From the UHGV virus genome UHGV-0144129: a DNA stretch of 39,244 bases. One strand, 5' to 3'. Of the stretch, positions 1 through 13,178 are shown piece by piece. Made by a program: the position numbers and the translations under genes. The DNA is from a virus. Below the pieces are notes generated by a model. The model worked only from the letters and a program-made list of their open reading frames with translations. It searched no databases and had not been told where the DNA came from. Numbering within the stretch: the first letter of the stretch is position 1; each line of letters begins with the position of its first letter.

Positions 1-202
1 TTACGTTTATCATGTTAACTCATCATTATTACATCATCACTGTAAATAATTAAATTAACTTCCATAACATTAAAATATGTATCCACTGACGCTTTTTTAC
101 ATAACGAAGAATTGACCATTTTGTCCTGTTGTGCCTTAATGTAAGTACCGTCCACGGCGTGGGACATACTTCAAGGAACCTTTTGTGAGTCAGGCAACCA
201 GT

Positions 203-376
203 ATGCGAAAACGACACCGATTTAACAGTCGCATGACCCGTATCGTACTGCTCATCAGCTTTATCTTCTTCTTTGGCCGTTTTATCTACTCGTCCGTCGG
301 TGCCTGGCAGCACCATCAGAGCAAAAAAGAAGCTCAGCAATCCACACTCTCCGTCGAATCACCGGTACAACGTTAG
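203..376 (+). CDS. small single-TM membrane protein (host)
   Basis: ORF track 185-376 begins with GTG; first in-frame ATG at 203. One hydrophobic helix (IVLLISFIFFFGRFIY) and a polar tail. No family recognised. Confidence 0.3.
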   Translation: MRKRHRFNSRMTRIVLLISFIFFFGRFIYSSVGAWQHHQSKKEAQQSTLSVESPVQR

Positions 377-686
377 CGGTTACCTTCTCCACTCTCACAG
401 AACATAACGGCACCTCGCTGTCGGATGCTTTTGCTCTTTGAGATTATCAAAGCGGCAGATATTCTTTCATCTTAAATTTTACGTTTTTGTTCTGACTGAA
501 GTTCATCCTGTTCGGCTGCGAAATAAATACATCATTAATACATATGTTGTGATGATGTATTTTTATAAATTATTTCCCGCATGAATTTTAATAAATTTAA
601 TCTATTCCTTTATACGCAATACATTTACTTTCCTCTTTTGATGATCTTAAATGTCTCATTTTTCGTAATGTGTATAACAAGGAATA

Positions 687-1205
687 GTGATGAAATTTAA
701 AAAATGTCTTCTGCCTGTGGCAATGTTAGCGTCATTCACTCTGGCAGGATGCCAGTCAAATGCTGATGATCATGCCGCCGATGTTTATCAAACCGATCAA
801 CTGAATACCAAACAAGAAACTAAAACCGTTAATATTATTTCCATTCTTCCCGCAAAAGTTGCCGTAGACAACGCCCAAAATAAACGGAACGCACAAGCCT
901 TCGGCGCGCTTATTGGCGCTGTCGCTGGCGGTGTTATCGGCCACAACGTCGGGTCTGGCAGCAATTCCGGAACGACAGCAGGTGCAGTTGGCGGCGGAGC
1001 TGTTGGCGCAGCAGCGGGTTCTATGGTGAATGATAAAACCTTAGTGGAAGGTGTTTCTTTAACATATAAGGAAGGCACCAAAGTGTATACCTCCACCCAG
1101 GTGGGTAAAGAGTGCCAGTTTACGACAGGTTTAGCCGTTGTTATTACCACGACGTATAACGAAACGCGTATTCAGCCAAATACCAAATGTCCTGAAAAGA
1201 GCTAA
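687..1205 (+). CDS. outer-membrane lipoprotein, glycine-zipper type
   Basis: Signal peptide ending in lipobox LAGC. Long Gly/Ala zipper (GALIGAVAGGVIGHNVGSG...) typical of OsmB/YcfJ-like lipoproteins. The antisense ORFs over it come from the same Gly/Ala-rich repeat. Confidence 0.6.
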   Translation: MMKFKKCLLPVAMLASFTLAGCQSNADDHAADVYQTDQLNTKQETKTVNIISILPAKVAVDNAQNKRNAQAFGALIGAVAGGVIGHNVGSGSNSGTTAGAVGGGAVGAAAGSMVNDKTLVEGVSLTYKEGTKVYTSTQVGKECQFTTGLAVVITTTYNETRIQPNTKCPEKS

Positions 1206-1220
1206 TAATCAGGAGGAGTC

Positions 1221-1760
1221 ATGAAGAAAGTTTTTCTTTGCGCCATCTTAGCCTCCTTAAGCTATCCGGCTATCGCCTCATCATTGCAGGATCAACTCTC
1301 GGCTGTCGCAGAAGCGGAACAGCAAGGTAAAAATGAAGAGCAAAGGCAGCATGACGAATGGGTCGCGGAGCGCAACAGGGAAATCCAGCAAGAGAAGCAA
1401 CGTCGCGCAAACGCCCAGGCCGCGGCTAATAAAAGAGCGGCAACGGCAGCAGCGAATAAGAAAGCTCGTCAGGATAAACTGGACGCCGAAGCCACTGCGG
1501 ACAAAAAACGCGATCAAAGTTATGAAGATGAGCTACGTAGCTTAGAGATTCAGAAACAAAAACTGGCGCTGGCGAAAGAAGAAGCCCGCGTCAAGCGCGA
1601 AAACGAATTTATCGATCAGGAACTGAAGCACAAAGCTGCGCAAACCGATGTGGTGCAATCTGAAGCTGACGCAAACAGAAATATGACTGAAGGCGGTCGC
1701 GATCTGATGAAAAGCGTGGGTAAAGCAGAAGAGAACAAATCGGACAGCTGGTTTAATTAA
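1221..1760 (+). CDS. secreted coiled-coil protein (DUF1090-like)
   Basis: SD aggagg 8 nt upstream of ATG. Signal peptide (..AIASS), then a K/E/Q/A-rich heptad-like sequence. Family assignment is from memory of composition only. Confidence 0.45.
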   Translation: MKKVFLCAILASLSYPAIASSLQDQLSAVAEAEQQGKNEEQRQHDEWVAERNREIQQEKQRRANAQAAANKRAATAAANKKARQDKLDAEATADKKRDQSYEDELRSLEIQKQKLALAKEEARVKRENEFIDQELKHKAAQTDVVQSEADANRNMTEGGRDLMKSVGKAEENKSDSWFN

Positions 1761-1800
1761 TCGATGTAAGTAACTTCAAGCCTATAATTCTTGAAGATAA

Positions 1801-1835
1801 AAAACCCTCTGTAGTAACAGAGGGTTTTGTTCATT
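1801..1835 (+). terminator. rho-independent terminator after the host gene pair
   Basis: aaaaccctctgt-agtaac-agagggtttt hairpin followed by a T-run. Confidence 0.55.
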
Positions 1836-2087
1836 CATAGTGCAGGGATCAAAATCATTCCCACTCAGCTATCAATGAGAAAATAAAATATAAATAAATC
1901 AATGCATTGAAACAAACCACTTAGCAGATACCACGAAAAATACCATGTCTCAATAATAGAGCTGTCTACAGGCTGTTCAGACGAACAATATGGCCGCTCT
2001 ACTCCTAATAGAGTCCTTAGCTCGGTCACATCACTAATTTCAACATAGATGTGAACAAAATGAGGCATCAACGCACCTATTCAGTTA

Positions 2088-3602
2088 GTGTATTTGATAT
2101 CGTATGTGGCAACAAAAAATGGAGTTACAATCTTGAAAGTAAGCGAGTTATCTAGCCAAATTGGCCGACTTTACGGCTTAAACAACATCAACATAATTAT
2201 GGGCCGAAACGGTGCGGGAAAAAGTCGTTTCCTTCGTGATATCGAACAAACAATCAGCCAGAACAAGCAGCAATTTTATGTCCGGTATGTAAGTCCAGAG
2301 CGAGCAGGATCGTTCAAGCGTGATGGCACCGTCCTCACAAATATGAGCGACAACCCCGAATGGCTGAGGCACACTCGGGCAGTTAATCAGGCAAGCAACT
2401 TCAAAGCTGCATCGGCTATGCTATTTCGCGAGGCCGAGACGCTTTACTTACGTCGACTTGCCAATACTCCGGAAATTCGAACTGATCTAACGCGAAACTT
2501 TCAGACAGACCGATTAAGTAAAATTAATCAGCTTCTCACTAACATTTCGCTCGAGATGGGTAATGTCGATTATGAGTTTCGATCACTTGTAGATGGTCAG
2601 ATTATTGATCCGGCCCAAATCAGTAGCGGTGAATCGGAAGCGGTTGCATTAGCCGCGGAAATCATCTATTTCTTCGACACAATAGATCCGGAGAAATTCA
2701 ACGTACTCCTCCTCGATGAGCCTGATGTACATCTGCACCCCGACCTCCAAGCTAGACTGGGCAAGCTGATAATCAGTATGCTCGACGAATTTAGAACACA
2801 CGCGAACAGTATTGCCATATGCTTATCCACCCATAGTTCCCCGCTCGTCTGTTCTCTTGCCGCCTCCCCATATGTATCAATCGGCACGAAGAGCTTTGCA
2901 GTGAATGAAATCTCATTGATACCGGCCAGCGATGAACTTCGAAAGATTGCACCATTCTTCGGGCACCCCCTATCGCTTTCTCTTAGCGAAGACGCTGCAT
3001 TAATTTTGGAAGGAGAGGACGACGAACGAGTCTGGCAACAAGCGGCCAGAACATCACAGGGTCGAATAAAAATCTTTCCCGTACTAGCAGGTAGCGTAGA
3101 TCAACAGAGTCAACTTGAGGATTTTTGCGTAGACCTCCTTAGTACACTCTATGACAATCCAATCGCCTTTTCCCTTCGTGATGGCGATGGTGTAATCAAC
3201 GAGTCGCTTGAACATCGCCTACCTCTTAAACGCTATCGCTTACGATGCTACGCTATCGAAAATGTTCTTTTGACTGATTCATGCCTTGCAGTAATGAATG
3301 TTACATGGGTGGAATTTGTAGACGCAGCCAAAAAATGGGTTGAGGATAATCAAACACACTCCGACATAGCGTTGATTGCAAAACTAATGGAATCGAACGA
3401 CCGATTGCGTCACAAGAAGATCAAGAAAATCCGCCAACTCGTCTGTGCTATTGTTGAGTGTAAAAAACCTTGGGAGGTAGTAGTTGGACAAGCAATCGGG
3501 GCATTGACCAGAGAAGACCTTGAAAACTCGAATATGTTGATCGATTTTCTTGGAGGAGAGATGGTCAGCGACGTCATCTTCAGGGACGCAATAAACCCAT
3601 GA
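2088..3602 (+). CDS. OLD-family-like ABC ATPase with Toprim-like nuclease domain (GajA / AriAB-like), putative anti-phage defence protein
   Basis: Walker A GRNGAGKS, ABC signature SSGESEAVALAAEI, Walker B VLLLDEPDVHLHP, H-loop LSTHS. C-terminal half has a Toprim-type glutamate (LILEGEDDE) and a DxD (LRDGDGV) about 60 aa later. Start uncertain: GTG at 2088 or TTG at 2133 preceded by GGAG. Confidence 0.55.
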   Translation: MYLISYVATKNGVTILKVSELSSQIGRLYGLNNINIIMGRNGAGKSRFLRDIEQTISQNKQQFYVRYVSPERAGSFKRDGTVLTNMSDNPEWLRHTRAVNQASNFKAASAMLFREAETLYLRRLANTPEIRTDLTRNFQTDRLSKINQLLTNISLEMGNVDYEFRSLVDGQIIDPAQISSGESEAVALAAEIIYFFDTIDPEKFNVLLLDEPDVHLHPDLQARLGKLIISMLDEFRTHANSIAICLSTHSSPLVCSLAASPYVSIGTKSFAVNEISLIPASDELRKIAPFFGHPLSLSLSEDAALILEGEDDERVWQQAARTSQGRIKIFPVLAGSVDQQSQLEDFCVDLLSTLYDNPIAFSLRDGDGVINESLEHRLPLKRYRLRCYAIENVLLTDSCLAVMNVTWVEFVDAAKKWVEDNQTHSDIALIAKLMESNDRLRHKKIKKIRQLVCAIVECKKPWEVVVGQAIGALTREDLENSNMLIDFLGGEMVSDVIFRDAINP

Positions 3603-3617
3603 GAATGACCTGATACT

Positions 3618-4013
3618 ATGACCACGATTGATCCGCCCTCATGGTATCAGTATTTATTTTATAACCCGCCTCTCAATACACCAAGAGATTGCGGTAAAGT
3701 GGAGCAGCATGATTACCAGCTTTATCTGGCGATAAATGATATTGAGCATACGAAAACGAAAGCAATGTCATCTAAGACCAATAGTATCTGCGAGCAGTTC
3801 CATAAAACGATACTGAACGAGTTTTATCAGGTGACGTTCCGCAAAAAGTTATATGATGATCTTGAAGCATTACAATCGGTTCTTGATGAATGGCGGGTTC
3901 ACTATAATAATGAGCGAACCCATCAGGGAAAAATGTGCAGTGGCCGAACGCCGATGGAAACGTTACTTGATGGAAAGCACATCTGGGATGAGAAAAACTT
4001 AAGCCAGATGTAA
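3618..4013 (+). pseudogene. C-terminal remnant of a DDE (rve-type) IS transposase
   Basis: KTNSICEQFHKTILNEFY ... YNNERTHQGKMCSGRTPMETL resembles the C-terminal end of an integrase-core domain (IS481/IS3-like). No N-terminal HTH or DDE core upstream. No inverted repeats recognised. Confidence 0.4.
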
Positions 4014-4100
4014 TCTGACAGATACCTTTATAAATAGCCGGTAATTGTCAGATCAGGTCTGATCTAATACAACTTAACTGTGTTATGAGCAATACTGAGG

Positions 4101-4877
4101 ATGGATATGGAACCAGAGAAATTTGCTGAAACTGCAATAGGATTTACCAAAAGCCCTCTTGGTATCATTGCACTCTTTATTGTTCTCGTTTATGGATTTG
4201 CCTCTTTCGTCGTTGGCTTTGGTAATGGCTTATCAGAGCATATAGCTCCCCTTATTTATTTCATGGTTTTCTTTCCTGTCATTGTGTTTCTTGGCTTTCT
4301 CTGGCTTGTTGCGAAACATCATAATAAGCTTTACGGGCCGTCAGATTTCAAAGATGAAAATAATTTTTTAAGAGCGCAAATAGCTACAGCAGCATCATTG
4401 ACCGCCGCCACAGCAAAACAGCCTGAAAATAGTGCAGGGGTCACTGAAAGCCAACTGCGAAAAATCGTCAACGTTGTATCCAATGCAAAACGGCAGAGTA
4501 AGCATGAAAAATGGCGAAATCGTATTTTATGGGTGGATGATCGACCAGAAAATAATGTTTACGAAAGACAGGCATTTGAGGCACAGGGAATAGAGTTCGC
4601 TTTAGCTCTTTCAACTGACGAAGCCTTAGAATTGTTAAAAACAAATAAGTTTGCAGCTATTATTTCGGATATGGATCGCAAAGAAGGGGCGCAAGAAGGT
4701 TATGTCTTACTAGAAAGATTACGCGCAATGGGAGACAAAACTCCTTTTATGATCTATGCGTCCTCAGATCTACCAGAGCACAAGAGAATGGCGAGAGAAA
4801 GAGGTGCAATTGGCTCCACTAATCGAGCAGAAGAACTCTTTCAAATTGTCATGGGTGCGATTACCAATGGCTCATAA
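4101..4877 (+). CDS. two-TM membrane protein with C-terminal CheY-like receiver (REC-like) domain
   Basis: Two hydrophobic helices at the N-terminus. C-terminus reads beta1 ILWVDD, beta3 AAIISDMDRKEG (Asp at acceptor position), beta4 FMIYASS, then a Lys-containing segment. AT-rich codon usage. Confidence 0.45.
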   Translation: MDMEPEKFAETAIGFTKSPLGIIALFIVLVYGFASFVVGFGNGLSEHIAPLIYFMVFFPVIVFLGFLWLVAKHHNKLYGPSDFKDENNFLRAQIATAASLTAATAKQPENSAGVTESQLRKIVNVVSNAKRQSKHEKWRNRILWVDDRPENNVYERQAFEAQGIEFALALSTDEALELLKTNKFAAIISDMDRKEGAQEGYVLLERLRAMGDKTPFMIYASSDLPEHKRMARERGAIGSTNRAEELFQIVMGAITNGS

Positions 4878-5092
4878 CAAAGCCATTAAATTCGCCCCCT
4901 ACGGCTACGGTTGCCGGGCGCTCACAACGGCCAGTATCTCATTTGTCGATTTGATCGATCTCATTGTAAGCACTTCCGGCTAGACTGTTTTGGAATACCG
5001 CCATTTTGTTGGTAATGGCTTTTATCTTTAGGCCATAGCCGATGTTATAGAGTTACGGCCTTAAAAATAGAAGTCATACACTCAATGAAAAA

Positions 5093-5130
5093 CCAATAAA
5101 AAATGCCAGTCAGCAAACTGACTGGCATTA
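5093..5130 (-). terminator. rho-independent terminator closing the phage late/lysis operon
   Basis: Perfect hairpin aatgccagtcag-caaa-ctgactggcatt. On the minus strand it is followed by a T6 run. Confidence 0.55.
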
Positions 5131-5273
5131 AAGTTAGTTGGAAAGGCTTAATTTACTATTTATAGCCAGTCCTACTCCCACTCAATTATTTACGGCATGC
5201 ATAACCAATTGACTGGTAACAACTTTCTGTAACCTTATTTTCACCGTACCGTTTTATATACCGTCACCGGAAA

Positions 5274-5771
5274 TCAGTGCCACGATTTTTGCTTCTTCAG
5301 TGAATCGTATTGCTGCTCGCAGAATTCCCCTGCGATACGATACTTTTCAGCCTCAGCTGCTGTTGCGTTGTAAACTCGGTTGCTTTCTTCAAGCATGTCG
5401 GCGAGCACACCGATGACCTTGCTGGCTGGCGTGCCAGGGGGGAAAGATCCGGTATAGTGTTCGGCGAGCCGCCTGGTTTTGTCAAGCTCGGCGCGCATGC
5501 TGTCAGCAGCGGAATTAGCATACTCAGCATCAGCACGCGCCGCATCGATACGGGATTGTGCTTCACGTTCAATTTGTGTTTTCTCCTGCTCACGCTGTGA
5601 CCTTAACTTATCATCAGCCTGTTTCTGATCTTCCTTCGCCTGAGCATACCCGGCATCGTACTGGCGGCTGCCATGCACATTCCAGGCAACAACGCAGCTG
5701 GCCACCAGAGCAGCAAGCATCGACACGATAAGCAACTGTTTCCAGTATGCTTTCACGAATGCCTTGATCAT
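5274..5771 (-). CDS. Rz-like i-spanin
   Basis: N-terminal TM (LLIVSMLAALVASCVVAW) then a charged coiled coil. Last gene of the lysis cassette. ATGA overlap with the upstream gene. Confidence 0.6.
   Translation of the reverse strand: MIKAFVKAYWKQLLIVSMLAALVASCVVAWNVHGSRQYDAGYAQAKEDQKQADDKLRSQREQEKTQIEREAQSRIDAARADAEYANSAADSMRAELDKTRRLAEHYTGSFPPGTPASKVIGVLADMLEESNRVYNATAAEAEKYRIAGEFCEQQYDSLKKQKSWH
5297..5545 (-). CDS. Rz1-like o-spanin lipoprotein, embedded in the +1 frame of Rz
   Basis: Internal Met of ORF 5297-5593 gives MRRVLMLSMLIPLLTAC with lipobox LTAC, followed by a Pro-rich mature part. Lies entirely inside Rz. Confidence 0.5.
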   Translation of the reverse strand: MRRVLMLSMLIPLLTACAPSLTKPGGSPNTIPDLSPLARQPARSSVCSPTCLKKATEFTTQQQLRLKSIVSQGNSASSNTIH

Positions 5772-5992
5772 ATACTTACCTTCGGCTGAAATCGGCGAAC
5801 GTTAATTGGCTCACCATATGGCCATGACCAATTCAGCCAGGTAAATGTTTTCAGCTCGCACATCGCATCGAAAAATTCACCAGGATCGATGTCGGAATAG
5901 CTGCAAACTATTTCCAGACCACGTTCTGTTTCTTGCAAAGCAACTGTATCTGTTTCCCAGCGGGGAATGAGCAAAGAAAATAGTTTATTCAT
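5768..5992 (-). CDS. hypothetical protein, translationally coupled between endolysin and Rz
   Basis: Start ATG at 5992 overlaps the endolysin stop (ATGA); its own stop overlaps the Rz start. 74 aa, Trp-rich, no family recognised. Confidence 0.4.
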
Positions 5993-6615
5993 AAAAGCAC
6001 CTTCTTGGCCGAAAGATACCGTACACGGCGATCGTCGATGCCGTTCCGGCCACCATTGATAATCAGAGTTACACGTGCAATATCGCCGGTATACTTCATG
6101 CATCCTTTGCTGGCGAAGAACCACGCCGCGCTACGAGCCGCGTATTCGTCCTGCACCAACAGTTCAGGATTCTCCAGCAGGTCCACTTTCAGGCCGTTTC
6201 CGCAATCACGATAGTTATTCAAACCGGTAATCTGGATAAGTCCGCGGCCACGGTAATTCCAGCCATCACCAGAGGCATTGTTCCCCATGCGTTTGCTGTA
6301 CACCAGATTGGCAATCGCACGCTGGCGCTCAGGTGGCAATGGTGGCTCGCCTGCACGACGACCCAATGCGTTAGCCTGTCCCTGAGTAAGACGACCGGCA
6401 CGAACGAAGTTAGCCAGTCCGGTGACGCTGTAATTGAAATTCTCCTGCAACCTGGTGAAGCCACCAGACTCATGCCCGACCTGAGCAATAAACATTGCCT
6501 GATCTTCGGGTTTTCTGATACCAAACTCTTTCATCGCAGAAGTTATATGCGAGAACCAGCGTGCGGCCAGAGCCTCGCTAATACCAGCAGCTCGCTGGAA
6601 TTGTTTAATCTCCAT
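5989..6615 (-). CDS. endolysin, glycoside hydrolase family 19-like
   Basis: Internal Met ([11 protein letters not shown]...) preceded by [16 protein letters not shown] matches the GH19 catalytic-region signature (AQxxHETGG). Follows the holin-like genes. Confidence 0.7.
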
Positions 6616-6913
6616 GTTTAGACCTCGATGTTTTGAAAATCTGAACAACGTTACCGCGTGTTTTAATAACCGCGGCAAGCATGACAGCGTTGATAATGAC
6701 CTCAGATAAATCCACAGCCATTGGCGTACGTAACCAGATTGCATAGGCGACACGAACAGGAATACTGGCCGCAGCAACAATAAGGAAATAAGCAAGCCAC
6801 CCTCCCCATCTTCGATGTTGAGAGCCGTTACGCCGGAATGTGACAACGCGAATTGCTATGCCAGTACAAATAATTGCATTGGTGATAAGCAAAACAAGCT
6901 CATTAGTTACCAT
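6605..6913 (-). CDS. holin-like small membrane protein
   Basis: 102 aa with 2-3 predicted TM helices and a basic C-terminus. Overlaps the endolysin start by 11 nt. Confidence 0.45.
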
Positions 6914-7313
6914 CGCCTTTTCTCCCAGGAATTAACTGGCGTGGATTATCAGAACGGTGATAGAGCCATATACCAATTCGCACTGCGACAATTGCTGACA
7001 CGAATGCGCCAGCAGAGAAAACAATCCCTTTCTCGAAAGAGTCCTGCGTGATGGTAGGTATCATGCTGGCTATTCCGATAAGAATTGATGTTGTTGGTTT
7101 GTAAAAGAGAAGACCACAAAGAAAGCTGAGTATCGACAAGAGTACACGACGACGAACAGGATACTCTACAGCAGAGGTAACAAATATTACCGCACCAGCC
7201 AGAGCACCGAGAGCCACCTCTGGCGGAACGCCGTAGACGACAGAGGCCAGCGCACCCAAGCTTAACCCTTGATTCAGTGAATCCGCCGTAACCGTGCCAT
7301 TCATGGTAACCAC
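6903..7313 (-). CDS. holin/antiholin-like membrane protein
   Basis: 136 aa with several hydrophobic helices, immediately downstream of the tail fibre gene and upstream of the endolysin. Confidence 0.4.
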   Translation of the reverse strand: MVTMNGTVTADSLNQGLSLGALASVVYGVPPEVALGALAGAVIFVTSAVEYPVRRRVLLSILSFLCGLLFYKPTTSILIGIASMIPTITQDSFEKGIVFSAGAFVSAIVAVRIGIWLYHRSDNPRQLIPGRKGDGN

Positions 7314-7401
7314 CGTTTATTGTGCATAAAAACCCCCTTAGAAGATGAGGTCCATCATACACAATAAACCATTTACGGATAATAATTACCTAAACTTGGT
7401 C

Positions 7402-10053
7402 TTATTTTGATTCCAATAGTTCGAGTCGCTCTTCAATACGATCGCATCGGCGGCGCTGATATGCAGCCTCAAGCCAAGCGCACTGGTCAGGCCGTATGCC
7501 CCATGAACTACCCGCTTTTTTAACCAGCCTCTGTTCTCCGGTGTCATATTCGACGGTGACCAACTCACCAGACGCATCGGTAATCTCTTTAGTCGCGATT
7601 ACCGGCTCAAAAATATCGTCCCACTCGTCATAGCAAAGAAGGCCAAATCTGGTTCCATCAATTCCGTGCGCCAGGAATACATCTCTTACCTGCTGAGCCA
7701 TGACGCCAAAATGCCATCTGGCACCATCGCCCTTCATGGATATAGCGTCGAGCCATCGATACGCCACAACAGAAATATCGCCCCAGGCATCAAGAATGCT
7801 GTCTCTATCAGAAGAAAGCATTTCACTTAAATCTGATATTGCCTCGGGATTGGTTTTCAGCGTGGCATCTGATGAAACGGTTGGGGCATTTGCAAAGTAG
7901 GCGTCTTTAATACGAAACGATGCCTGACCAAAATTATAGGTATTGTCAGCAAACGGGCGAAGACCTGTATTATAAAACCGCCAGCGTATGGTTCCTCCCA
8001 ATGCTGTCGGGTCGCTGTTGCATGCAATATCCACCGTGGTGGCAGACCTAAACACAGAAGAACTACCGCCCAATACCAAGCTATTTGCGCTAGCTGTAGC
8101 CTGCTGGTCAAGGACCAATATTTTCTGAGAGTTTGTAGTTGCACCGGCATATGATGATGCAGTGATGCGGTTTAATTGGTTTGTATCAGGATCTGCGTTT
8201 TGCTGAATGGTTAAGTTAGATGCCCACTGTGCCGGTCGCTGGCGCACAAATACAAAGTCACCAGAAGGATTAGTTGCAACCAAATAACTAATGCCACTAT
8301 CAGATGAATAATAGTTGACTATAAAAGTCTGATTATTCGCATTCAGTATTTCAACATATGTGCTGGAAGGGATTGCCACGCCAGATATATCAGCAATGCT
8401 GACAGTCCCTGTGTAAAAATTAAATGCCTTCTGACTCATCTCCTGCATATAGCGAAGAATTTCAGTCATGTTAGTGAACAACGTACCATCTACAGGGTTA
8501 ACAATCCCCTTCGCACTACGGGGATATACCCCAATGCTCGCGTGATCGATATCAAATCCGCGGTAAAGCCTGGATGCAGGTGTAAAATCGATAGCATCTT
8601 TATCAGTGGAGAAATCTTCGAAAATAACCAAACCTGAATTGTAAGGTTCAGAGCCAGTTCTTTCCTGATGAATGTAAAGTGAATAAATGGATTTTCCATC
8701 CTGAGAAACACAAACGCCTTCATTTTCTATGCGAGTGACGTTCAATCCTGCGGCTTTCATTAAATCCATCATGGCCTGAGGATGAAGCATTGATTCAGTT
8801 CGCTTTGTACCGTCAGGGTTAAAAACTTTGCTGCCCTGATATTCGTTATATCCTGCGCTTCCTGCCCCATCAGCTATGAAGCCGCCATAGCCGCAGACAA
8901 AGTAGTTATCACCTACCGCAATACCCTGACGCTTGTTGAAATAAGGCGCATAAGGTGAGGTGCTTTTAGTTACATACCCAACATCATGTAACGGCAGCGT
9001 TATAGTTGACAGGCGATTGAAACCACTGTCGAACACTGCAAGTACAGTTCTTGTGATTTTCTGTCCTACTTCTGGCGCATTCTGCTCAACGAGCCATATA
9101 CCTCTTCTGTAGCTGAACTGGTTGAATAATCCAACATCATGGTTTTGTACAAGAGGCAGATTGCTTCCGTATAATGCCCCCTCCATATTAAATTCACGCA
9201 GTATTCCGTTTGTGTGACCAACAAACATTTTTTTTGGGCCATAGTCTGACGTAACCACGATTCCTTCAGCAGCGAAGCCTGGGCCGCCAGCCTGAACATA
9301 GAAATAACCTTGATAAATACCAGATATGTTAAATACTGCGACGACATTATTCGTCTGTTTAGGCTCAAATGGATAAGTGATGTATATCAAATCTTCGCTA
9401 ACGCAGAATCCTTGAGGATACATATAAGTTGCTGACGGGTTAGCAGCCATAATCGCATCATATTCAGGAAAAAGAAGCGGCATCGTAGCTACAATCTTTC
9501 TTTGGTGATTTGTAAAAATATCGTTTTTAGCGCTGTTAGGTGTAGGCGTTACACCTCCAGTAAAAAGATCATCAACATAACCTTTATTGACAGCATCGTT
9601 TCTGTCAGTGGCATTTGCTAGATTTGATATCTTATTATTTTTTGCATCATAATAGTTAGCCAGAATGCTTGGTTTTATAAGTGCTAACCTCATCCATGAA
9701 AAACACTTTTGAATAAGCATTGTCAGTTTATCGAACGCGTCTTCATGTACCTCAGCGAAGAACTTACCCTGATTACGCAAATCAGTATCCTGCGTAACCG
9801 GGAGCTCTCGTGATATAGAAATATGATAACCGTTAGCCAACGCCTTCGACAGAATTACATTACCGCCATTATATCCTCCAGCATTGGTTACTGTGTAGTC
9901 AGTATCCAGAACCAATTCTGTTACGTTCCCGTTCAGGTCAGACACCTGAACAACCAGGTCGGATTTTTTGAAAATACGGAAGGTATACGGAAATGATGTC
10001 GTAGCTCCGTTACCAGTGTATTCGTTGTGGTCAACTTCGGTTGAGACCGTCAT
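7402..10053 (-). CDS. tail fibre / tailspike with T7 gp17-like N-terminal anchor and C-terminal intramolecular chaperone (S74-type) domain
   Basis: N-terminus (YTGNGATTSFPYTFRIF...LDTDYTV) follows the T7 gp17 tail-attachment pattern. C-terminus (WHFGVMAQQVRDVF...GIDGTRFGLL) matches the auto-cleaving chaperone domain of endosialidases and L-shaped fibres. Position is after the internal virion genes, as in T7. Confidence 0.7.
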   Translation of the reverse strand: MTVSTEVDHNEYTGNGATTSFPYTFRIFKKSDLVVQVSDLNGNVTELVLDTDYTVTNAGGYNGGNVILSKALANGYHISISRELPVTQDTDLRNQGKFFAEVHEDAFDKLTMLIQKCFSWMRLALIKPSILANYYDAKNNKISNLANATDRNDAVNKGYVDDLFTGGVTPTPNSAKNDIFTNHQRKIVATMPLLFPEYDAIMAANPSATYMYPQGFCVSEDLIYITYPFEPKQTNNVVAVFNISGIYQGYFYVQAGGPGFAAEGIVVTSDYGPKKMFVGHTNGILREFNMEGALYGSNLPLVQNHDVGLFNQFSYRRGIWLVEQNAPEVGQKITRTVLAVFDSGFNRLSTITLPLHDVGYVTKSTSPYAPYFNKRQGIAVGDNYFVCGYGGFIADGAGSAGYNEYQGSKVFNPDGTKRTESMLHPQAMMDLMKAAGLNVTRIENEGVCVSQDGKSIYSLYIHQERTGSEPYNSGLVIFEDFSTDKDAIDFTPASRLYRGFDIDHASIGVYPRSAKGIVNPVDGTLFTNMTEILRYMQEMSQKAFNFYTGTVSIADISGVAIPSSTYVEILNANNQTFIVNYYSSDSGISYLVATNPSGDFVFVRQRPAQWASNLTIQQNADPDTNQLNRITASSYAGATTNSQKILVLDQQATASANSLVLGGSSSVFRSATTVDIACNSDPTALGGTIRWRFYNTGLRPFADNTYNFGQASFRIKDAYFANAPTVSSDATLKTNPEAISDLSEMLSSDRDSILDAWGDISVVAYRWLDAISMKGDGARWHFGVMAQQVRDVFLAHGIDGTRFGLLCYDEWDDIFEPVIATKEITDASGELVTVEYDTGEQRLVKKAGSSWGIRPDQCAWLEAAYQRRRCDRIEERLELLESK

Positions 10054-10156
10054 GTTAAATCTCCAGATAGTCGCAGCACCCGTTGCGCCGCATATCTGGT
10101 TATTCTATTACCTGAAAAACCACATATGGATAGATAATCCATAAATACGAAAAGAT

Positions 10157-10173
10157 ATTACCTTTCAGGTGAT
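10157..10173. promoter_or_regulatory. operator-like imperfect palindrome ATTACCT-TTC-AGGTGAT (family A)
   Basis: Member of a recurring TTACCT-N3-AGGTAA family. Lies about 50 bp upstream of the LexA box. Confidence 0.4.
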
Positions 10174-10209
10174 TTGCAAAACGTGCTGGATAGCAAACAA
10201 ATTATTTGC

Positions 10210-10229
10210 TACTGTATAAATATACAGTT
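10210..10229 (+). promoter_or_regulatory. LexA (SOS) box
   Basis: TACTGTATAAATATACAGTT is CTGT-N8-ACAG with an AT-rich spacer and TA flanks; 18 of 20 match the E. coli consensus TACTGTATATATATACAGTA. It sits about 20 bp upstream of the ATG at 10249. Confidence 0.65.
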
Positions 10230-10248
10230 ATTGCATGGAGAAGATAAG

Positions 10249-10506
10249 ATGCAGCAGTATCACTATCCACTGGAAGACGGATTTACCGAAAGGATTCACA
10301 CGCCGGGAGGCGTCAGGTCACTGGTGGAGGGATCGCACTTGATGAAATTACTCCGGGATCTCGATAAGGATGGATTTAATGTCGATGGCCCACTTGCCGA
10401 ACTGACTGCACTGATTAACTACGTCACCAGCTCACAGATGTCTATGCGGGATCTGCAAACACATCTCGACTATTGTGCCGAACAATTACGAAAACAAACC
10501 CGGTAA
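10249..10506 (+). CDS. SOS-controlled mini-antirepressor (stand-alone copy of the Ant C-terminal domain)
   Basis: GGAG 8 nt upstream of ATG. The 85 aa product aligns over its whole length with the C-terminal about 80 aa of both Ant proteins (PLxxGxxxxIHxPxGV...DGxxVxGxxAELTxxxxYxxxxxxxxRDxQTHxxY). Confidence 0.55.
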   Translation: MQQYHYPLEDGFTERIHTPGGVRSLVEGSHLMKLLRDLDKDGFNVDGPLAELTALINYVTSSQMSMRDLQTHLDYCAEQLRKQTR

Positions 10507-10528
10507 ATTTAAAGGCCGCAAGAGCGGC

Positions 10529-11257
10529 CTATCGTTTCGCTTTGTGCTCATCCCAGCACGTTTTGCACCATGCCATTAAGCCGTCCGCATTTTGATTATT
10601 AGGGTAAAAGCTGGTTCGTTTTCTGCGGACATTACAAATTGGGCACCACTTCATATGGCGTGTATTCTTTGGGCCATCGAGACACCTTGCACACCATTTA
10701 GTCAATCCATCTGGATTTTTTGACGATTTCCTGAATTTTTCATATGGAAGGTTTATTCTGCATCGCAAGCACTGCTTGCTACCACTTGAAACTCTGTTAG
10801 CTGATTCTTCTTTTGGCGGCGATACAGAAGGTATTCTTGCTGGCTCTGATATTGCCTGAGGTGCTTTTTTAGATGACTGAGACGATATGTCATCACCAGG
10901 GAATCTTCCATGATATGCCGGACGCGTTGACACTCCAGGTGGAATCTCAGCTGTAAACGGCTTTGGCTGAATCAGTTGCCTCTCTTTTGCTAACTCCTGC
11001 TGTTTATAATATGTCTGGATTACCGCACTATCATAAGCAGGAGGTGCGGAAATATTAGGCGCATTACCTCCAGTTTTTTGAAACTGAGTAGAGGTGTGTT
11101 CTATCACCTGTGTACGATTAATCGTTATCTCCCCATCTTCGGTCTTTATCGTTTTGTTATGATTAACGACCGTACGATCAGAGATCTTAGTCTTGTTCTG
11201 GTTGATAACGTAAATAATCACCGCAACCACACCAACAACTATCCAGAAAACTTCCAT
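10529..11257 (-). CDS. membrane-anchored protein with tandem zinc-ribbon motifs
   Basis: SD GAGG before ATG. N-terminal TM helix, Pro/Ser-rich linker, then two repeats of a P/ADGLxxWCxxC unit with extra CxxC pairs. Transcribed immediately before the tail fibre gene. Confidence 0.5.
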   Translation of the reverse strand: MEVFWIVVGVVAVIIYVINQNKTKISDRTVVNHNKTIKTEDGEITINRTQVIEHTSTQFQKTGGNAPNISAPPAYDSAVIQTYYKQQELAKERQLIQPKPFTAEIPPGVSTRPAYHGRFPGDDISSQSSKKAPQAISEPARIPSVSPPKEESANRVSSGSKQCLRCRINLPYEKFRKSSKNPDGLTKWCARCLDGPKNTRHMKWCPICNVRRKRTSFYPNNQNADGLMAWCKTCWDEHKAKR

Positions 11258-11656: not shown

Positions 11657-12313
11657 ATGAACGCTCAACTCATCCCCGTATTCAACGGCACTATATCTAA
11701 CGAAACAGCCCTACTTTGTAATGCCCGCGATCTGCACGCTTTTTTAGGTGTTAAAAAGGTGTTTGCAGCATGGATTACAAATCGCATATCAGAATACGAA
11801 TTCATTGAAAATCAAGACTATATTTTGCTTTCCAATTTGGGAAAGCAAACATCTGGTAGAGGCGGCCACAACCGCAAAGAGTACCACCTCACCCTTGATA
11901 CAGCCAAAGAGCTGGCGATGGTCGAGCGTAACGAAAAAGGTCGCCAGGTGCGACGCTACTTCATTGAATGCGAGAAACGTTTAAGACAACAAGAAACAAA
12001 AGTGGAGAAGGTCTTGTCAGGCTTCATGCCCGCCATTATGGAGGCGATCAAGCTGGAAGACAAAAAAGAATACAGCGCCCCACTGAAGCCCGGCTACCGT
12101 AGCCTGATTCATTCGCCGTCTGGTGTTCTCGGCCTGACGGAGAACTCACTGCTGATGAATTTGCTGAACCAGTTACAGGAAGACGGGCACGATGTATCGG
12201 GCGCGGCGGCGGAGCTGACCACCATGTTCTGCTACATCGTTGGTGTGAGCAAATGCCTGCGTGATATCCAGACGCACGCGGAGTACATCAACGACAAGGC
12301 AGGATTCTTCTGA
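11657..12313 (+). CDS. antirepressor-like protein (second Ant; Bro-N/ORF6N-like N-domain plus shared Ant C-domain)
   Basis: N-terminal region ([22 protein letters not shown]...) resembles phage antirepressor / Bro N-terminal domains. The C-terminal 80 aa are near-identical to the C-terminus of the Ant at 13323-14267. Confidence 0.55.
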
Positions 12314-12337
12314 CAGAACGGCGGCACAGGGATGTGC
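12083..12337. repeat. left arm of a ~255 bp inverted repeat (3' end of ant2 plus 25 bp of 3' UTR)
   Basis: Reverse complement matches 13300-13555 at roughly 95 percent, by eye alignment. Confidence 0.7.
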
Positions 12338-12385
12338 CTTTAAATAATTCTGTACAGATTGCAGACTGGGGGTGAATAGCGTACT

Positions 12386-12402
12386 ATTACCTCACGGGTG
12401 AT
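12386..12402. promoter_or_regulatory. operator-like imperfect palindrome ATTACCT-CAC-GGGTGAT (family A)
   Basis: Same left half-site as the other family A sites; about 140 bp upstream of the gene at 12543. Confidence 0.3.
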
Positions 12403-12542
12403 CCATAGCGATTAGGCACCGATACAGGAGGAGCCCACATGAGAAAATTTGACGAGTACGAAGGCGTTTAACATTCGGATAGTTCATTTACCCTAATGGT
12501 AAATCCCGCTTAAAGAAGCATCTATATATTATGAGGTGATGT

Positions 12543-13178
12543 ATGCCACAACAACTGCTGAATCCGGCAAAGGTAACTGAGGTTTTCGCTCATCTGAACG
12601 AAACTCCAGACAACCGCGCCCTGTATTCAGAGTTAGTGAACGGCAACGATGTCACATCTGATGTCAAAGGCGTTTCTCTGGCTCCTGGATACCGCGTTGT
12701 CCGTGTAGACGATCGTAAGAAAGGCGAGATTCCACAGGCGCACTTTGAACTGTCATTGATAAATGACCTCACCGAAGAGGTAGTGTATTACAATCGTGTC
12801 ATTATCCAGCCTGACAGCTATCTTAACTGCCGTCCTGTCACGCAGATATTGGTATGGAGAACCCAGAAGCCTAAGCATCGTGCTGTGCTTCATGATTTCG
12901 CCGGCATCATCTTCATGAACTACCTCTTGGAACGGTACGATATCATCGTGTCAGATCGCAACCAGACTCATGAAGGCATGTCGTTCTGGCAGGCTCGCAT
13001 GTATGACGCACTGGAACTTGGCCTCCACCTCTATGGTTACGACATGATGACATGCGAGCTGATAGAGATGAATAACGAGGAAGAGCTTGAGAAAGGTGAA
13101 ACCTGGTTGTGGGGTGATGCGGAAAACTTCCAAAACAGATTGGCCATAATTTCAAAGCATAAGCTGCCAATAAAATAG
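12543..13178 (+). CDS. hypothetical protein (cargo between the inverted repeats)
   Basis: 211 aa ORF with normal codon usage and its own terminator. No motif recognised. Confidence 0.5.
   Translation: MPQQLLNPAKVTEVFAHLNETPDNRALYSELVNGNDVTSDVKGVSLAPGYRVVRVDDRKKGEIPQAHFELSLINDLTEEVVYYNRVIIQPDSYLNCRPVTQILVWRTQKPKHRAVLHDFAGIIFMNYLLERYDIIVSDRNQTHEGMSFWQARMYDALELGLHLYGYDMMTCELIEMNNEEELEKGETWLWGDAENFQNRLAIISKHKLPIK

What the first reader, a model, noticed from the sequence alone, without database searches (positions are those of the whole stretch)
7402..10053. Tail fibre/spike with self-cleaving C-terminal chaperone: likely polysaccharide depolymerase
The conserved N-terminal anchor and the C-terminal intramolecular chaperone signature bracket about 550 aa of central sequence. 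In such proteins the centre is usually a beta-helix glycanase that sets host serotype specificity. The middle is likely the host-range determinant and the recombination-prone part.
Basis: partly seen in the sequence, partly recalled or inferred. Interest (0 to 1): 0.4.

Follow-up and report, generated by a model that had tools for sequence, protein, structure and literature searches.

The report
K2-capsule phage tailspike with beta-propeller head
This prophage tailspike has the predicted anchor and self-cleaving chaperone, but its centre is a five-bladed beta-propeller, not a beta-helix, and it is related to a gene inside the E. coli K2 capsule locus, so it most likely targets that teichoic-acid-like capsule.

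Summary
ORF 7402..10053 (-) encodes an 883-aa tailspike of an epsilon15/phiV10-like prophage in E. coli. It has a conserved N-terminal anchor (1-~165) and a Peptidase_S74 chaperone (728-883, Ser728/Lys733).

The propeller is 40% identical (E 1e-63) to an exported hypothetical protein. That protein is the last gene of region 2 of the CFT073 K2 capsule locus, which makes a poly(galactosyl-glycerol-phosphate) polymer.

Of 19 complete E. coli genomes carrying this spike, 17 carry the K2 gene, against 2.6% of all genomes. A Mu-like prophage fibre with a 53%-identical module is also almost confined to K2 genomes. A Rahnella strain has both a K2-like locus and a homologous spike.

The spike is therefore most likely K2-capsule specific. 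The centre is indeed the mosaic, host-range-setting part. Whether the propeller cleaves the polymer or only binds it is unproven; an invariant E/R/K/Q/E/E set is consistent with catalysis. It is a new variant of a known kind.

The parts
7402..10053 (-). Complete tailspike CDS (883 codons plus stop)
   Evidence: ORF list. 100% identical to SCU-101 WP_097564300.1. phrog_1171 'tail spike protein' at E 1e-218.
10061..10064 (-). Shine-Dalgarno GGAG, 7 nt upstream of the ATG
   Evidence: Read directly from the sequence.
9754..10053 (-). Residues 1-100: N-terminal beta domain, the particle-binding anchor of epsilon15 gp20/phiV10 type
   Evidence: phrog_1640 at E 4e-102. 61-80% identity to epsilon15/phiV10/PAS61 N-termini. 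PDB 28lx/8ck1 N-terminus at E 1.9e-25. Strands 9-82 at pLDDT ~90 in the full-length model.
9508..9753 (-). Residues 101-182: helical neck and linker. It is still part of the conserved N-terminal module up to about residue 165.
   Evidence: Helix 106-125 and low-confidence 126-176 in the monomer model. Weak Phage_T7_tail match at 134-161, below the cut-off.
8611..9507 (-). Residues 183-481: five-bladed beta-propeller, the putative K2-capsule recognition or cleavage domain
8719..9267 (-). Span holding the family-invariant polar residues: E263 (9265-9267), R335 (9049-9051), K374 (8932-8934), Q376 (8926-8928), E443 (8725-8727), E445 (8719-8721)
   Evidence: Conservation over 118 family members is 96, 88, 99, 100, 100 and 100%. 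Codons were checked. Each lies at or next to the start of a strand in a different blade. Convergence in the central cavity is inferred, not measured.
8233..8610 (-). Residues 482-607: small alpha/beta 'tower-like' domain that follows the propeller in most family members
   Evidence: AF2 pLDDT ~94. Co-conserved with the propeller in phage members (matches reach query 415-495). Absent from the standalone capsule-locus proteins.
7873..8232 (-). Residues 608-727: beta-rich stalk, presumed to form a triple beta-helix in the trimer
   Evidence: Strands 626-700 at pLDDT 60-85 in the monomer model. Residues 665-727 align to the stalk end of K1F endoNF in 3gw6, and 637-727 to spike 9vvr.
7405..7872 (-). 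Residues 728-883: C-terminal intramolecular chaperone (Peptidase_S74), predicted to be released by self-cleavage before Ser728
   Evidence: Pfam PF13884 at E 2.8e-12. 3gw6 at E 3e-39, phi29 gp12 chaperone 3gud at E 1.3e-19, T5 pb1 4uw8 at E 1.1e-11. pLDDT 85-94.
7855..7872 (-). Predicted catalytic dyad of the chaperone: Ser728 (7870-7872) and Lys733 (7855-7857), motif S-D-A-T-L-K
   Evidence: Alignment to 3gw6, where the Ser911Ala position and Lys916 coincide with S728 and K733. The Pfam S74 profile starts at residue 728. Codons were checked.

Best explanation
The gene encodes the single tailspike of an epsilon15/phiV10-like temperate podophage integrated beside yfgI.

Assembly. Three chains are brought into register by the C-terminal S74 chaperone. 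The chaperone then cuts itself off before Ser728 (Ser728/Lys733 dyad), leaving a 727-residue spike.

Architecture of the mature spike, in order:
- an epsilon15 gp20-type N-terminal anchor that plugs into the tail;
- a helical neck;
- three five-bladed beta-propellers, one per chain;
- a small tower-like domain;
- a beta stalk.

This is the endosialidase layout, with the sialidase propeller exchanged for one of the type used by phages of Gram-positive bacteria to recognise wall teichoic acid.

Proposed function. The propeller recognises the E. coli K2 capsule, a teichoic-acid-like poly(galactosyl-glycerol phosphate). Recognition would occur in the central cavity, lined by the invariant residues E263, R335, K374, Q376, E443 and E445. 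I propose that the propeller also cleaves the polymer, letting the short-tailed virion tunnel through the capsule. The chemistry is unknown; attack on or next to the phosphodiester is the most attractive guess.

The propeller shares ancestry with an exported protein encoded as the last region-2 gene of the K2 capsule locus itself.

Status of each step.
- Shown: domain architecture, fold, homology to the K2-locus protein, co-occurrence with K2 loci, mosaicism.
- Inferred: trimerisation and self-cleavage, K2 as receptor, cavity as the site, catalysis.
For: Architecture. The models come (pLDDT 92.8; pLDDT 84.7).

Fold.
- Foldseek finds the 80alpha, phi11, P68 and NF5 RBPs at E 1e-8 to 7e-12.
- BFVD finds a Staphylococcus phage vB_SscM-1 tail fibre at TM 0.77 and the Bacillus phage GA-1 neck appendage.
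- A Staphylococcus siphophage baseplate protein is a true sequence homologue: 32% identity, E 1e-46.

K2 link.
- Standalone, signal-peptide-bearing propeller proteins sit in region 2 of group-2 capsule loci. They lie next to a TagD-like cytidylyltransferase and a TagF-like polymerase of about 1250 aa.
- In CFT073 (O6:K2) this is WP_001208051.1, 40% identical to spike residues 187-480, E 1e-63.
- K2 is a teichoic-acid-like poly(glycosyl-glycerol phosphate) (PMC5974469; reference title).

Co-occurrence.
- 17 of 19 spike-carrying complete genomes have the K2 gene, against 141 of 5426 overall. Fisher p is 7e-26, or 3e-18 after collapsing obvious duplicates.
- A Mu-like prophage tail fibre with a 53%-identical module (P0005) occurs in roughly 55-60 genomes. 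Only 3 of them lack the K2 gene, and an O25b:H4-ST131 strain is among the carriers.
- Rahnella rivi FC061912-K has both a K2-like locus and a 64%-identical spike.

Catalysis (indirect).
- Six polar residues are 88-100% conserved across 118 members at 24-79% identity, in phage and cellular proteins alike.
- The positionally equivalent modules in sibling prophages are enzymes.
- Most family members carry no other candidate catalytic domain.
- Phage ZCEC08, whose spike is 41.5% identical over 184-883, makes haloed plaques.
Against: - No activity or binding has been measured for any member of this family.
- The closest solved relatives (phi11 Gp45, P68 gp17, NF5 gp18) are described as receptor binders with no enzymatic activity.
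- No sequence-level link to Gp45 exists (HMM against PDB; hhalign probability 4%).
- There is no match to any known phosphodiesterase or glycosidase family.
- A few members are fused to separate GDSL esterases. phrog_22693, to which the centre also matches, carries a 'glycerophosphoryl diester phosphodiesterase' label. Both would fit a purely binding role for the propeller.
- The invariant acidic residues could hold a structural metal ion in the propeller channel rather than act in catalysis.
- The co-occurrence statistics ignore clonal relatedness. Several carriers are near-duplicates, and K types were inferred from one locus gene, not typed.
- Two spike carriers (B19695, Nord58) lack the K2 gene.
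- The window itself does not include the host's kps locus.
Confidence: 0.45

Rival explanations
1. The spike is K2-capsule specific, but the propeller is only a lectin-like adhesin. It binds the galactosyl-glycerol-phosphate repeat reversibly, as proposed for phi11 Gp45 and wall teichoic acid. The virion reaches the outer membrane without degrading the capsule, for example through thin or unencapsulated patches or with the help of another factor.
For: The closest solved folds are receptor binders with no known activity. There is no hit to any hydrolase or lyase family. Some relatives carry separate esterase domains, and phrog_22693, which the centre also matches, is labelled as a phosphodiesterase family. 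A related module sits on a Mu-like contractile-tail fibre, where binding alone would suffice. All the K2-association evidence fits this reading equally well.
Against: The constellation E263/R335/K374/Q376/E443/E445 is invariant across hosts as different as Staphylococcus and E. coli. That is unusual for a specificity-determining lectin site; receptor-binding sites are reported to differ between NF5 and S. aureus phages. A pure lectin encoded with a signal peptide inside a capsule synthesis locus is hard to rationalise. Sibling prophages carry enzymes at this position. A related phage makes haloed plaques.
Confidence: 0.33
2. The propeller recognises a different surface glycan, such as an O-antigen or another polysaccharide. 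The association with K2 loci would then be a by-product of clonal structure: the prophage and K2 simply travel in the same ExPEC lineages.
For: The carriers include obvious near-duplicates (SCU-101 twice; P4/FP4; 439/446/447/463). No O typing or MLST was done. Epsilon15 and phiV10, whose anchors this spike shares, are O-antigen specific (established knowledge; N-terminal homology). Two carriers lack the K2 gene.
Against: Homology to a gene of the K2 locus itself. The same association holds for a second, unrelated prophage type; its carriers come from humans, dogs and wastewater and include an O25b:H4-ST131 strain, and only 3 of them lack the K2 gene. The same pairing of a K2-like locus with a homologous spike occurs in Rahnella, a different genus. 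Fold relatives recognise teichoic acids, the chemical class to which K2 belongs.
Confidence: 0.12
3. One reading: the centre is a right-handed parallel beta-helix glycanase of the classical tailspike type.
For: This is the commonest fold in such proteins, about 86% of detected depolymerase folds in DepoScope's survey (PMC11326577).
Against: There are no beta-helix Pfam hits. The AF2 model, with pLDDT above 95 over residues 184-605, is a propeller plus an alpha/beta domain. All top fold matches are propellers.
Confidence: 0.02
4. The protein is an endosialidase (K1-type endo-N-acetylneuraminidase), as homologues are annotated in several phage records.
For: Homologues in phages PBM-2, ST1UNAM, U8 and ZCEC08 are labelled 'endo-N-acetylneuraminidase'. 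The C-terminus is strongly similar to that of K1F endoNF.
Confidence: 0.01

Closest known systems
K1F endosialidase endoNF (GH58 tailspike; PDB 3gw6 for stalk end plus chaperone)
   Same: The overall layout is the same: N-terminal particle anchor, one beta-propeller per chain, C-terminal beta stalk, and a self-cleaving S74 chaperone with a Ser/Lys dyad. Both are capsule-directed spikes of short-tailed coliphages. Residues 665-883 are homologous (E 3e-39).
   Different: The propeller here has five blades and shows no sequence similarity to the six-bladed sialidase domain. The likely substrate is the K2 poly(galactosyl-glycerol phosphate), not polysialic acid. The anchor is of the epsilon15 type, not the T7 type.
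Receptor-binding proteins of Gram-positive phages: phi11 Gp45 (5efv), 80alpha RBP (6v8i), P68 gp17 (6iab), NF5 gp18 (9m7x)
   Different: There is no detectable sequence homology to Gp45. Those proteins have a coiled-coil stem and dock to siphophage or podophage baseplates. They lack the C-terminal stalk and S74 chaperone. They belong to phages of Gram-positive hosts.
CFT073 K2 capsule locus protein WP_001208051.1 (last gene of region 2, 'hypothetical protein') and its orthologues in Atlantibacter, Rahnella and Pantoea
   Same: This is the closest cellular homologue of the propeller: 40% identity over 297 residues, E 1e-63. All the invariant residues are retained.
   Different: These are standalone proteins of about 330-350 aa with a signal peptide and no anchor, tower, stalk or chaperone. 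They are host-encoded, and no function is given in the genome annotation or in the papers read here. Spike and standalone propellers are only 30-40% identical, so there has been no recent exchange.
Salmonella phage epsilon15 gp20 and E. coli phage phiV10 tailspikes
   Same: Same phage type and gene position. The N-terminal anchor is 61-68% identical.
   Different: Their receptor-binding parts are unrelated to this one; the homologue in Salmonella phage VB_ST_E15 is annotated as right-handed parallel beta-helix repeat-containing. By established knowledge they act on O-antigen.
Bacillus phage phi29 gp12 neck appendage (3gud)
   Same: It is a spike with a homologous self-cleaving C-terminal chaperone (E 1.3e-19). 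By established knowledge it degrades a poly(glycerol phosphate) teichoic acid.
   Different: Its catalytic part is a beta-helix, not a propeller.

Membership tests
Peptidase S74 / C-terminal intramolecular chaperone domain (CIMCD) | Sequence match to PF13884 above the gathering score | tested here: met
   47.1 bits against a cut-off of 22, E 2.8e-12, residues 728-797.
Peptidase S74 / C-terminal intramolecular chaperone domain (CIMCD) | Conserved Ser-Lys catalytic dyad at the cleavage site | tested here: met
   S728 and K733 align with the Ser911(Ala) and Lys916 positions of 3gw6. Codons were verified.
Peptidase S74 / C-terminal intramolecular chaperone domain (CIMCD) | Trimer-dependent autoproteolytic release of the domain | not testable with these tools
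   This needs expression of the wild type and an S728A mutant, followed by SDS-PAGE or mass spectrometry.
Epsilon15 gp20 / phiV10-type tailspike N-terminal anchor | Homologous N-terminal ~160 residues, in a prophage with epsilon15-like virion genes | tested here: met
   phrog_1640 at E 4e-102. 61-80% identity to epsilon15, phiV10 and PAS61. Neighbouring capsid staple gp10, T7 gp14-family core protein, portal and GH19 lysis cassette.
Right-handed parallel beta-helix depolymerase tailspikes | Central right-handed parallel beta-helix | tested here: not met
   No beta-helix Pfam hit. The model is a propeller plus an alpha/beta domain at pLDDT above 90.
Endosialidase (GH58) | Six-bladed sialidase propeller homologous to the endoNF catalytic domain | tested here: not met
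phi11 Gp45-type receptor-binding protein (stem-platform-tower) | Five-bladed beta-propeller platform domain | tested here: met
phi11 Gp45-type receptor-binding protein (stem-platform-tower) | Detectable sequence homology to Gp45 | tested here: not met
   A family HMM searched against PDB gives no hit to 5efv at E up to 1. hhalign of the family profile against Gp45 gives a probability of 4%.
phi11 Gp45-type receptor-binding protein (stem-platform-tower) | Coiled-coil stem docking to a siphophage baseplate, and two tandem tower domains at the C-terminus | tested here: not met
   The N-terminus is an epsilon15-type beta domain. Only one tower-like domain is present, followed by a stalk and S74.
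Five-bladed propeller glycoside hydrolases (GH43/GH32/GH62 clan) | Fold plus the family's catalytic Asp/Glu residues and sequence signature | tested here: inconclusive
Glycerophosphodiester phosphodiesterase (GDPD), the label of phrog_22693 | GDPD TIM-barrel domain (PF03009) | tested here: not met
   No GDPD hit in this protein or in 54 long family members. The PHROG match covers profile positions 403-858 of 968, so its functional label may derive from a part of those proteins not matched here.
K2-capsule-specific phage receptor-binding proteins (functional class proposed here) | Occurrence restricted to hosts with the K2 capsule locus | tested here: met
   17 of 19 carriers against a 2.6% background. 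For the related Mu-like fibre, all but 3 of about 55-60 carriers have the K2 gene. The test was not phylogenetically corrected.
K2-capsule-specific phage receptor-binding proteins (functional class proposed here) | Binding to or degradation of purified K2 polysaccharide | not testable with these tools
   This requires biochemistry.

The most novel reading that the evidence does not exclude
The propeller defines a new class of capsule depolymerase. It would be a metal- or acid-assisted enzyme that cuts teichoic-acid-like poly(glycosyl-polyol phosphate) polymers at or next to the phosphodiester, using the invariant E263/R335/K374/Q376/E443/E445 site. The same enzyme family would then serve two roles: as an endogenous, exported capsule-processing enzyme encoded in K2-type capsule loci, and as the business end of spikes and fibres of phages infecting both Gram-negative (K2-type capsule) and Gram-positive (wall teichoic acid) hosts. 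That would imply that the 'platform' propellers of some staphylococcal phage RBPs may also be catalytic.
Probability: 0.25. Interest if true: 0.8.

Novelty: new variant of a known kind. Interest (0 to 1): 0.58.

Why it matters
K2 is the capsule of CFT073 and of many other extraintestinal pathogenic E. coli. A 2025 paper's list of K antigens with known phage depolymerases (PMC12488582) does not include K2, and my literature searches found no described K2-specific spike.

If confirmed, the finding would supply several things:
- a K2-specific recognition or degradation module for typing, phage engineering or anti-capsule therapy;
- a function to test for the uncharacterised last gene of the K2 locus;
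- evidence that phages of Gram-negative and Gram-positive bacteria use one propeller scaffold for one chemical class of surface polymer.

It also corrects a recurring annotation error: 'endo-N-acetylneuraminidase' is being transferred through the shared chaperone domain.

Tried and rejected
- NCBIfam scan of the spike gave no hit.
- A family HMM against PDB sequences and hhalign against phi11 Gp45 gave no sequence link. The relation to Gp45 therefore rests on fold only.
- The AFDB50 fold library was unavailable.
- The Pfam scan of the whole 118-member alignment exceeded the size limit. It was rerun on 54 long members.
- I looked for co-variation between spike propellers and the capsule-locus propeller of the same host, as a sign of recent exchange. 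All pairs are 30-40% identical, so there is no such signal.
- Literature searches for a described E. coli K2-specific phage or depolymerase, and for the lytic phages carrying homologues, returned nothing specific. The exception is the haloed plaques of ZCEC08.
- A search for gene names of K2 region 2 in PMC3983267 found nothing.
- I tried to judge clonal independence of the carriers from the yfgH-yfgI flank. It was uninformative beyond showing that P4/FP4 share the window's left junction and SCU-101 does not.
- The promoter scan found no convincing sigma-70 site between the upstream terminator-like hairpin and the start codon.
Full report
**Observation.** The finding's coordinates coincide exactly with an 883-codon ORF on the minus strand (7402..10053). 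A GGAG ribosome-binding site lies at 10061-10064. A strong terminator-like hairpin at 10513-10530 closes the upstream 242-aa ORF.

The window is E. coli chromosome carrying an epsilon15/phiV10-like prophage beside yfgI. In the near-identical SCU-101 copy, the gene (WP_097564300.1, 'tail fiber domain-containing protein') is followed by two holins, a GH19 endolysin and a DUF2514 spanin. After an accessory region, it is preceded by T7 gp14-family core, capsid-staple, major-capsid and portal genes.

The N-terminal ~165 residues match phrog_1640 at E 4e-102. They are 61-80% identical to the N-termini of epsilon15, phiV10 and PAS61 spikes, and they match the N-terminus of the solved spikes Dpo31/36.

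Residues 728-797 match Pfam Peptidase_S74 well above its threshold. Residues 665-883 align to the K1F endosialidase chaperone structure 3gw6 at E 3e-39, and Ser728 and Lys733 fall on the catalytic dyad positions. The phi29 gp12 and T5 pb1 chaperones also match.

**What the centre is.** Pfam and NCBIfam recognise nothing between residues 166 and 727. An exhaustive HMMER search with residues 166-660 found 283 clusters of relatives (111 at E below 1e-30). The match regularly covers spike residues ~183-595.

With 118 of these sequences as the alignment, AlphaFold2 gave a very confident model (pLDDT 92.8, pTM 0.86). A full-length run agreed (pLDDT 84.7). The domains are:
- a beta domain at 9-82;
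- a helical neck;
- a five-bladed beta-propeller at 184-480;
- a compact alpha/beta domain at 485-605;
- a beta stalk at 626-700, of lower confidence as expected for a monomer model of a trimeric fibre;
- the chaperone at 739-882.

There is no beta-helix.

The relation to Gp45 is structural only. A family HMM finds nothing in PDB, and hhalign gives a 4% probability. Some staphylococcal baseplate proteins, however, are genuine sequence homologues. The phage HHU-22 protein, encoded between Tal/SGNH and BppU, is 32% identical at E 1e-46.

**The link to the K2 capsule.** Seven relatives are short (330-353 aa), begin with signal peptides, and consist of the propeller alone. Their genes lie in region 2 of ABC-transporter-dependent (group 2) capsule loci. 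The gene order is kpsM, kpsT, a TagD-like cytidylyltransferase, a TPR protein, a TagF-like polymerase of about 1250 aa, an XcbB/CpsF-family protein and the propeller protein, followed by convergent kpsS, C, D, E and F. This holds in metagenomic contigs and in Atlantibacter, Rahnella and Pantoea genomes.

The same arrangement is the K2 locus of E. coli CFT073 (O6:K2:H1). Its last region-2 gene, WP_001208051.1 ('hypothetical protein', 331 aa), is 40% identical to spike residues 187-480 (E 1e-63) and 50% identical to the metagenomic protein.

K2 is a teichoic-acid-like poly(glycosyl-glycerol phosphate) made by a TagF-like polymerase (PMC5974469; Jann et al. 1980 title).

I then asked whether the spike travels with K2. 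A chimeric query (spike centre plus the CFT073 propeller gene) showed that 19 complete E. coli genomes carry the spike centre and 17 of them also carry the K2 gene. The K2 gene is otherwise present in 141 of 5426 genomes. Fisher p is 7e-26, or 3e-18 after collapsing obvious duplicates.

A second module is 53% identical (P0005) and forms the tail fibre of an unrelated Mu-like prophage. It occupies 63 places in roughly 55-60 genomes, of which only 3 lack the K2 gene. The carriers come from humans, dogs and wastewater and include an O25b:H4-ST131 strain.

In a different genus, Rahnella rivi FC061912-K has both a K2-like locus and a prophage spike 64% identical to this one, with the same anchor.

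These three lines, together with the chemistry shared with wall teichoic acid, make K2 the most likely receptor. I put this at about 0.8, that is, the best explanation and the binding-only rival combined. Clonal non-independence and the absence of formal K and O typing are the main caveats. Two carriers lack the K2 gene.

**Mosaicism.** The first ~340 nt of the gene are found in 495 E. coli genomes, fused to SGNH/GDSL esterase, GH28-like, sialidase or endosialidase centres. The full gene is in 19. Conversely, the propeller module occurs behind epsilon15-type, T7-type, TSP1-type, tail-collar, BppU and endosialidase-type N-termini, and in 18 of 54 long relatives in front of S74.

**Binding or cleavage?** Across 118 family members (24-79% identical to the query), six polar residues are almost invariant: E263 96%, R335 88%, K374 99%, Q376 100%, E443 100% and E445 100%. 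E443 and E445 belong to the RIENEG motif. Each residue sits at or next to the start of a strand in a different blade. In propellers that is where residues lining the central cavity come from; this placement is inferred, because I had no access to the model coordinates.

Several observations favour a catalytic site:
- the invariance extends across phage and cellular members and across very different hosts;
- an exported homologue sits inside a capsule locus;
- sibling prophages carry enzymes at this position;
- most relatives lack any other catalytic domain;
- phage ZCEC08, whose spike is 41.5% identical over 184-883, makes haloed plaques.

Other observations weigh against it:
- the closest solved relatives are regarded as binders;
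- no known hydrolase signature is present;
- a few relatives are fused to separate esterases;
- the acidic residues might simply hold a structural metal.

I commit to depolymerase (0.45) over pure adhesin (0.33), and I mark catalysis as inference.

**Comparison and novelty.** Architecturally the protein is an endosialidase-like spike: anchor, propeller, stalk and self-cleaving chaperone. Its propeller, however, is of the kind used by phages of Gram-positive bacteria. It is not a member of GH58, of the beta-helix spikes, or of GDPD. Membership of the Gp45 family holds at fold level only.

The 'endo-N-acetylneuraminidase' labels on homologues in phage records (PMC12001532) are best explained by the shared chaperone domain and should not be propagated.

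I found no description of an E. coli K2-specific phage protein in the held literature. I also found no description of the homology between a phage spike and the K2-locus gene. The sequence itself is already public but unannotated. I therefore rate it a new variant of a known kind, of moderate to good interest.

Noticed in passing
window 2088-4877 (+): A 3.4-kb block lies between yfgI (1221-1760) and the prophage lysis end. It holds a 504-aa AAA_15/AAA_21/ABC-type ATPase (weak generic PADLOC hits: PDC-M01A 1e-17, AriA 3e-15), an rve_3 integrase-core fragment (3618-4013) and a 258-aa ORF with a response-regulator receiver domain (4101-4877). The block is absent from the otherwise near-identical SCU-101 locus, while strains P4/FP4 match the window continuously through its start (to base 2050). 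It could be a small defence or mobile island.
   Followed up: partly
L010 (E. coli CFT073 NC_004431) 11695-12690; record 3520204-3521199: The last gene of K2 capsule region 2 (WP_001208051.1, 'hypothetical protein', 331 aa, signal peptide) is a standalone five-bladed-propeller homologue of the spike centre. It is present at 95% identity or more in all 141 K2-gene genomes. No function is given for it in the annotation or in the papers read.
   Followed up: partly
L010 10661-11689 (CFT073 K2 locus, XcbB/CpsF-family protein): Its sequence contains a G-C-S-K-G nucleophile-elbow motif, read from the DNA printed. This suggests an alpha/beta-hydrolase-type enzyme. It may be the 'putative acetyltransferase' whose frameshift is proposed to distinguish K2a from K2ab (PMC13171606).
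   Followed up: no
L011 3001-5376 (E. coli GCA_032431415.1): A Mu-like prophage (Gp45/46/47/48 baseplate genes) carries a 791-aa tail fibre (P0005, a cluster of 365 sequences). Its propeller module is 53% identical and it has an S74 chaperone. It too is almost confined to K2-locus genomes, and some genomes carry both prophages, for example P4, Ecol_AZ146, A1.S1.18 and 98889.
   Followed up: partly
phage records PV029541, OQ469755, MT862763, PP213477, PV833354: Homologous spikes are annotated 'endo-N-acetylneuraminidase', although only the C-terminal chaperone resembles endosialidase. This is probably annotation transfer.
   Followed up: yes
window 10529-11257 (-): A 242-aa ORF lies directly upstream of the spike. 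It has an N-terminal hydrophobic segment and a C-terminal Cys-rich region (weak Stc1-like hit, E 5e-4, below threshold). A strong terminator-like hairpin follows at 10513-10530. Its function is unknown.
   Followed up: no
window 31103-31179 (+): A prophage-borne tRNA-Arg (anticodon TCT) lies among the head genes. It is also annotated in the SCU-101 copy.
   Followed up: no
L008 (Rahnella rivi FC061912-K) 1-11204, and protein P0002: The same Rahnella strain encodes a K2-like capsule locus (TagF-like polymerase 44% identical to the E. coli K2 enzyme) and a prophage spike 64% identical to this one. This is an independent instance of the locus-spike pairing.
   Followed up: partly
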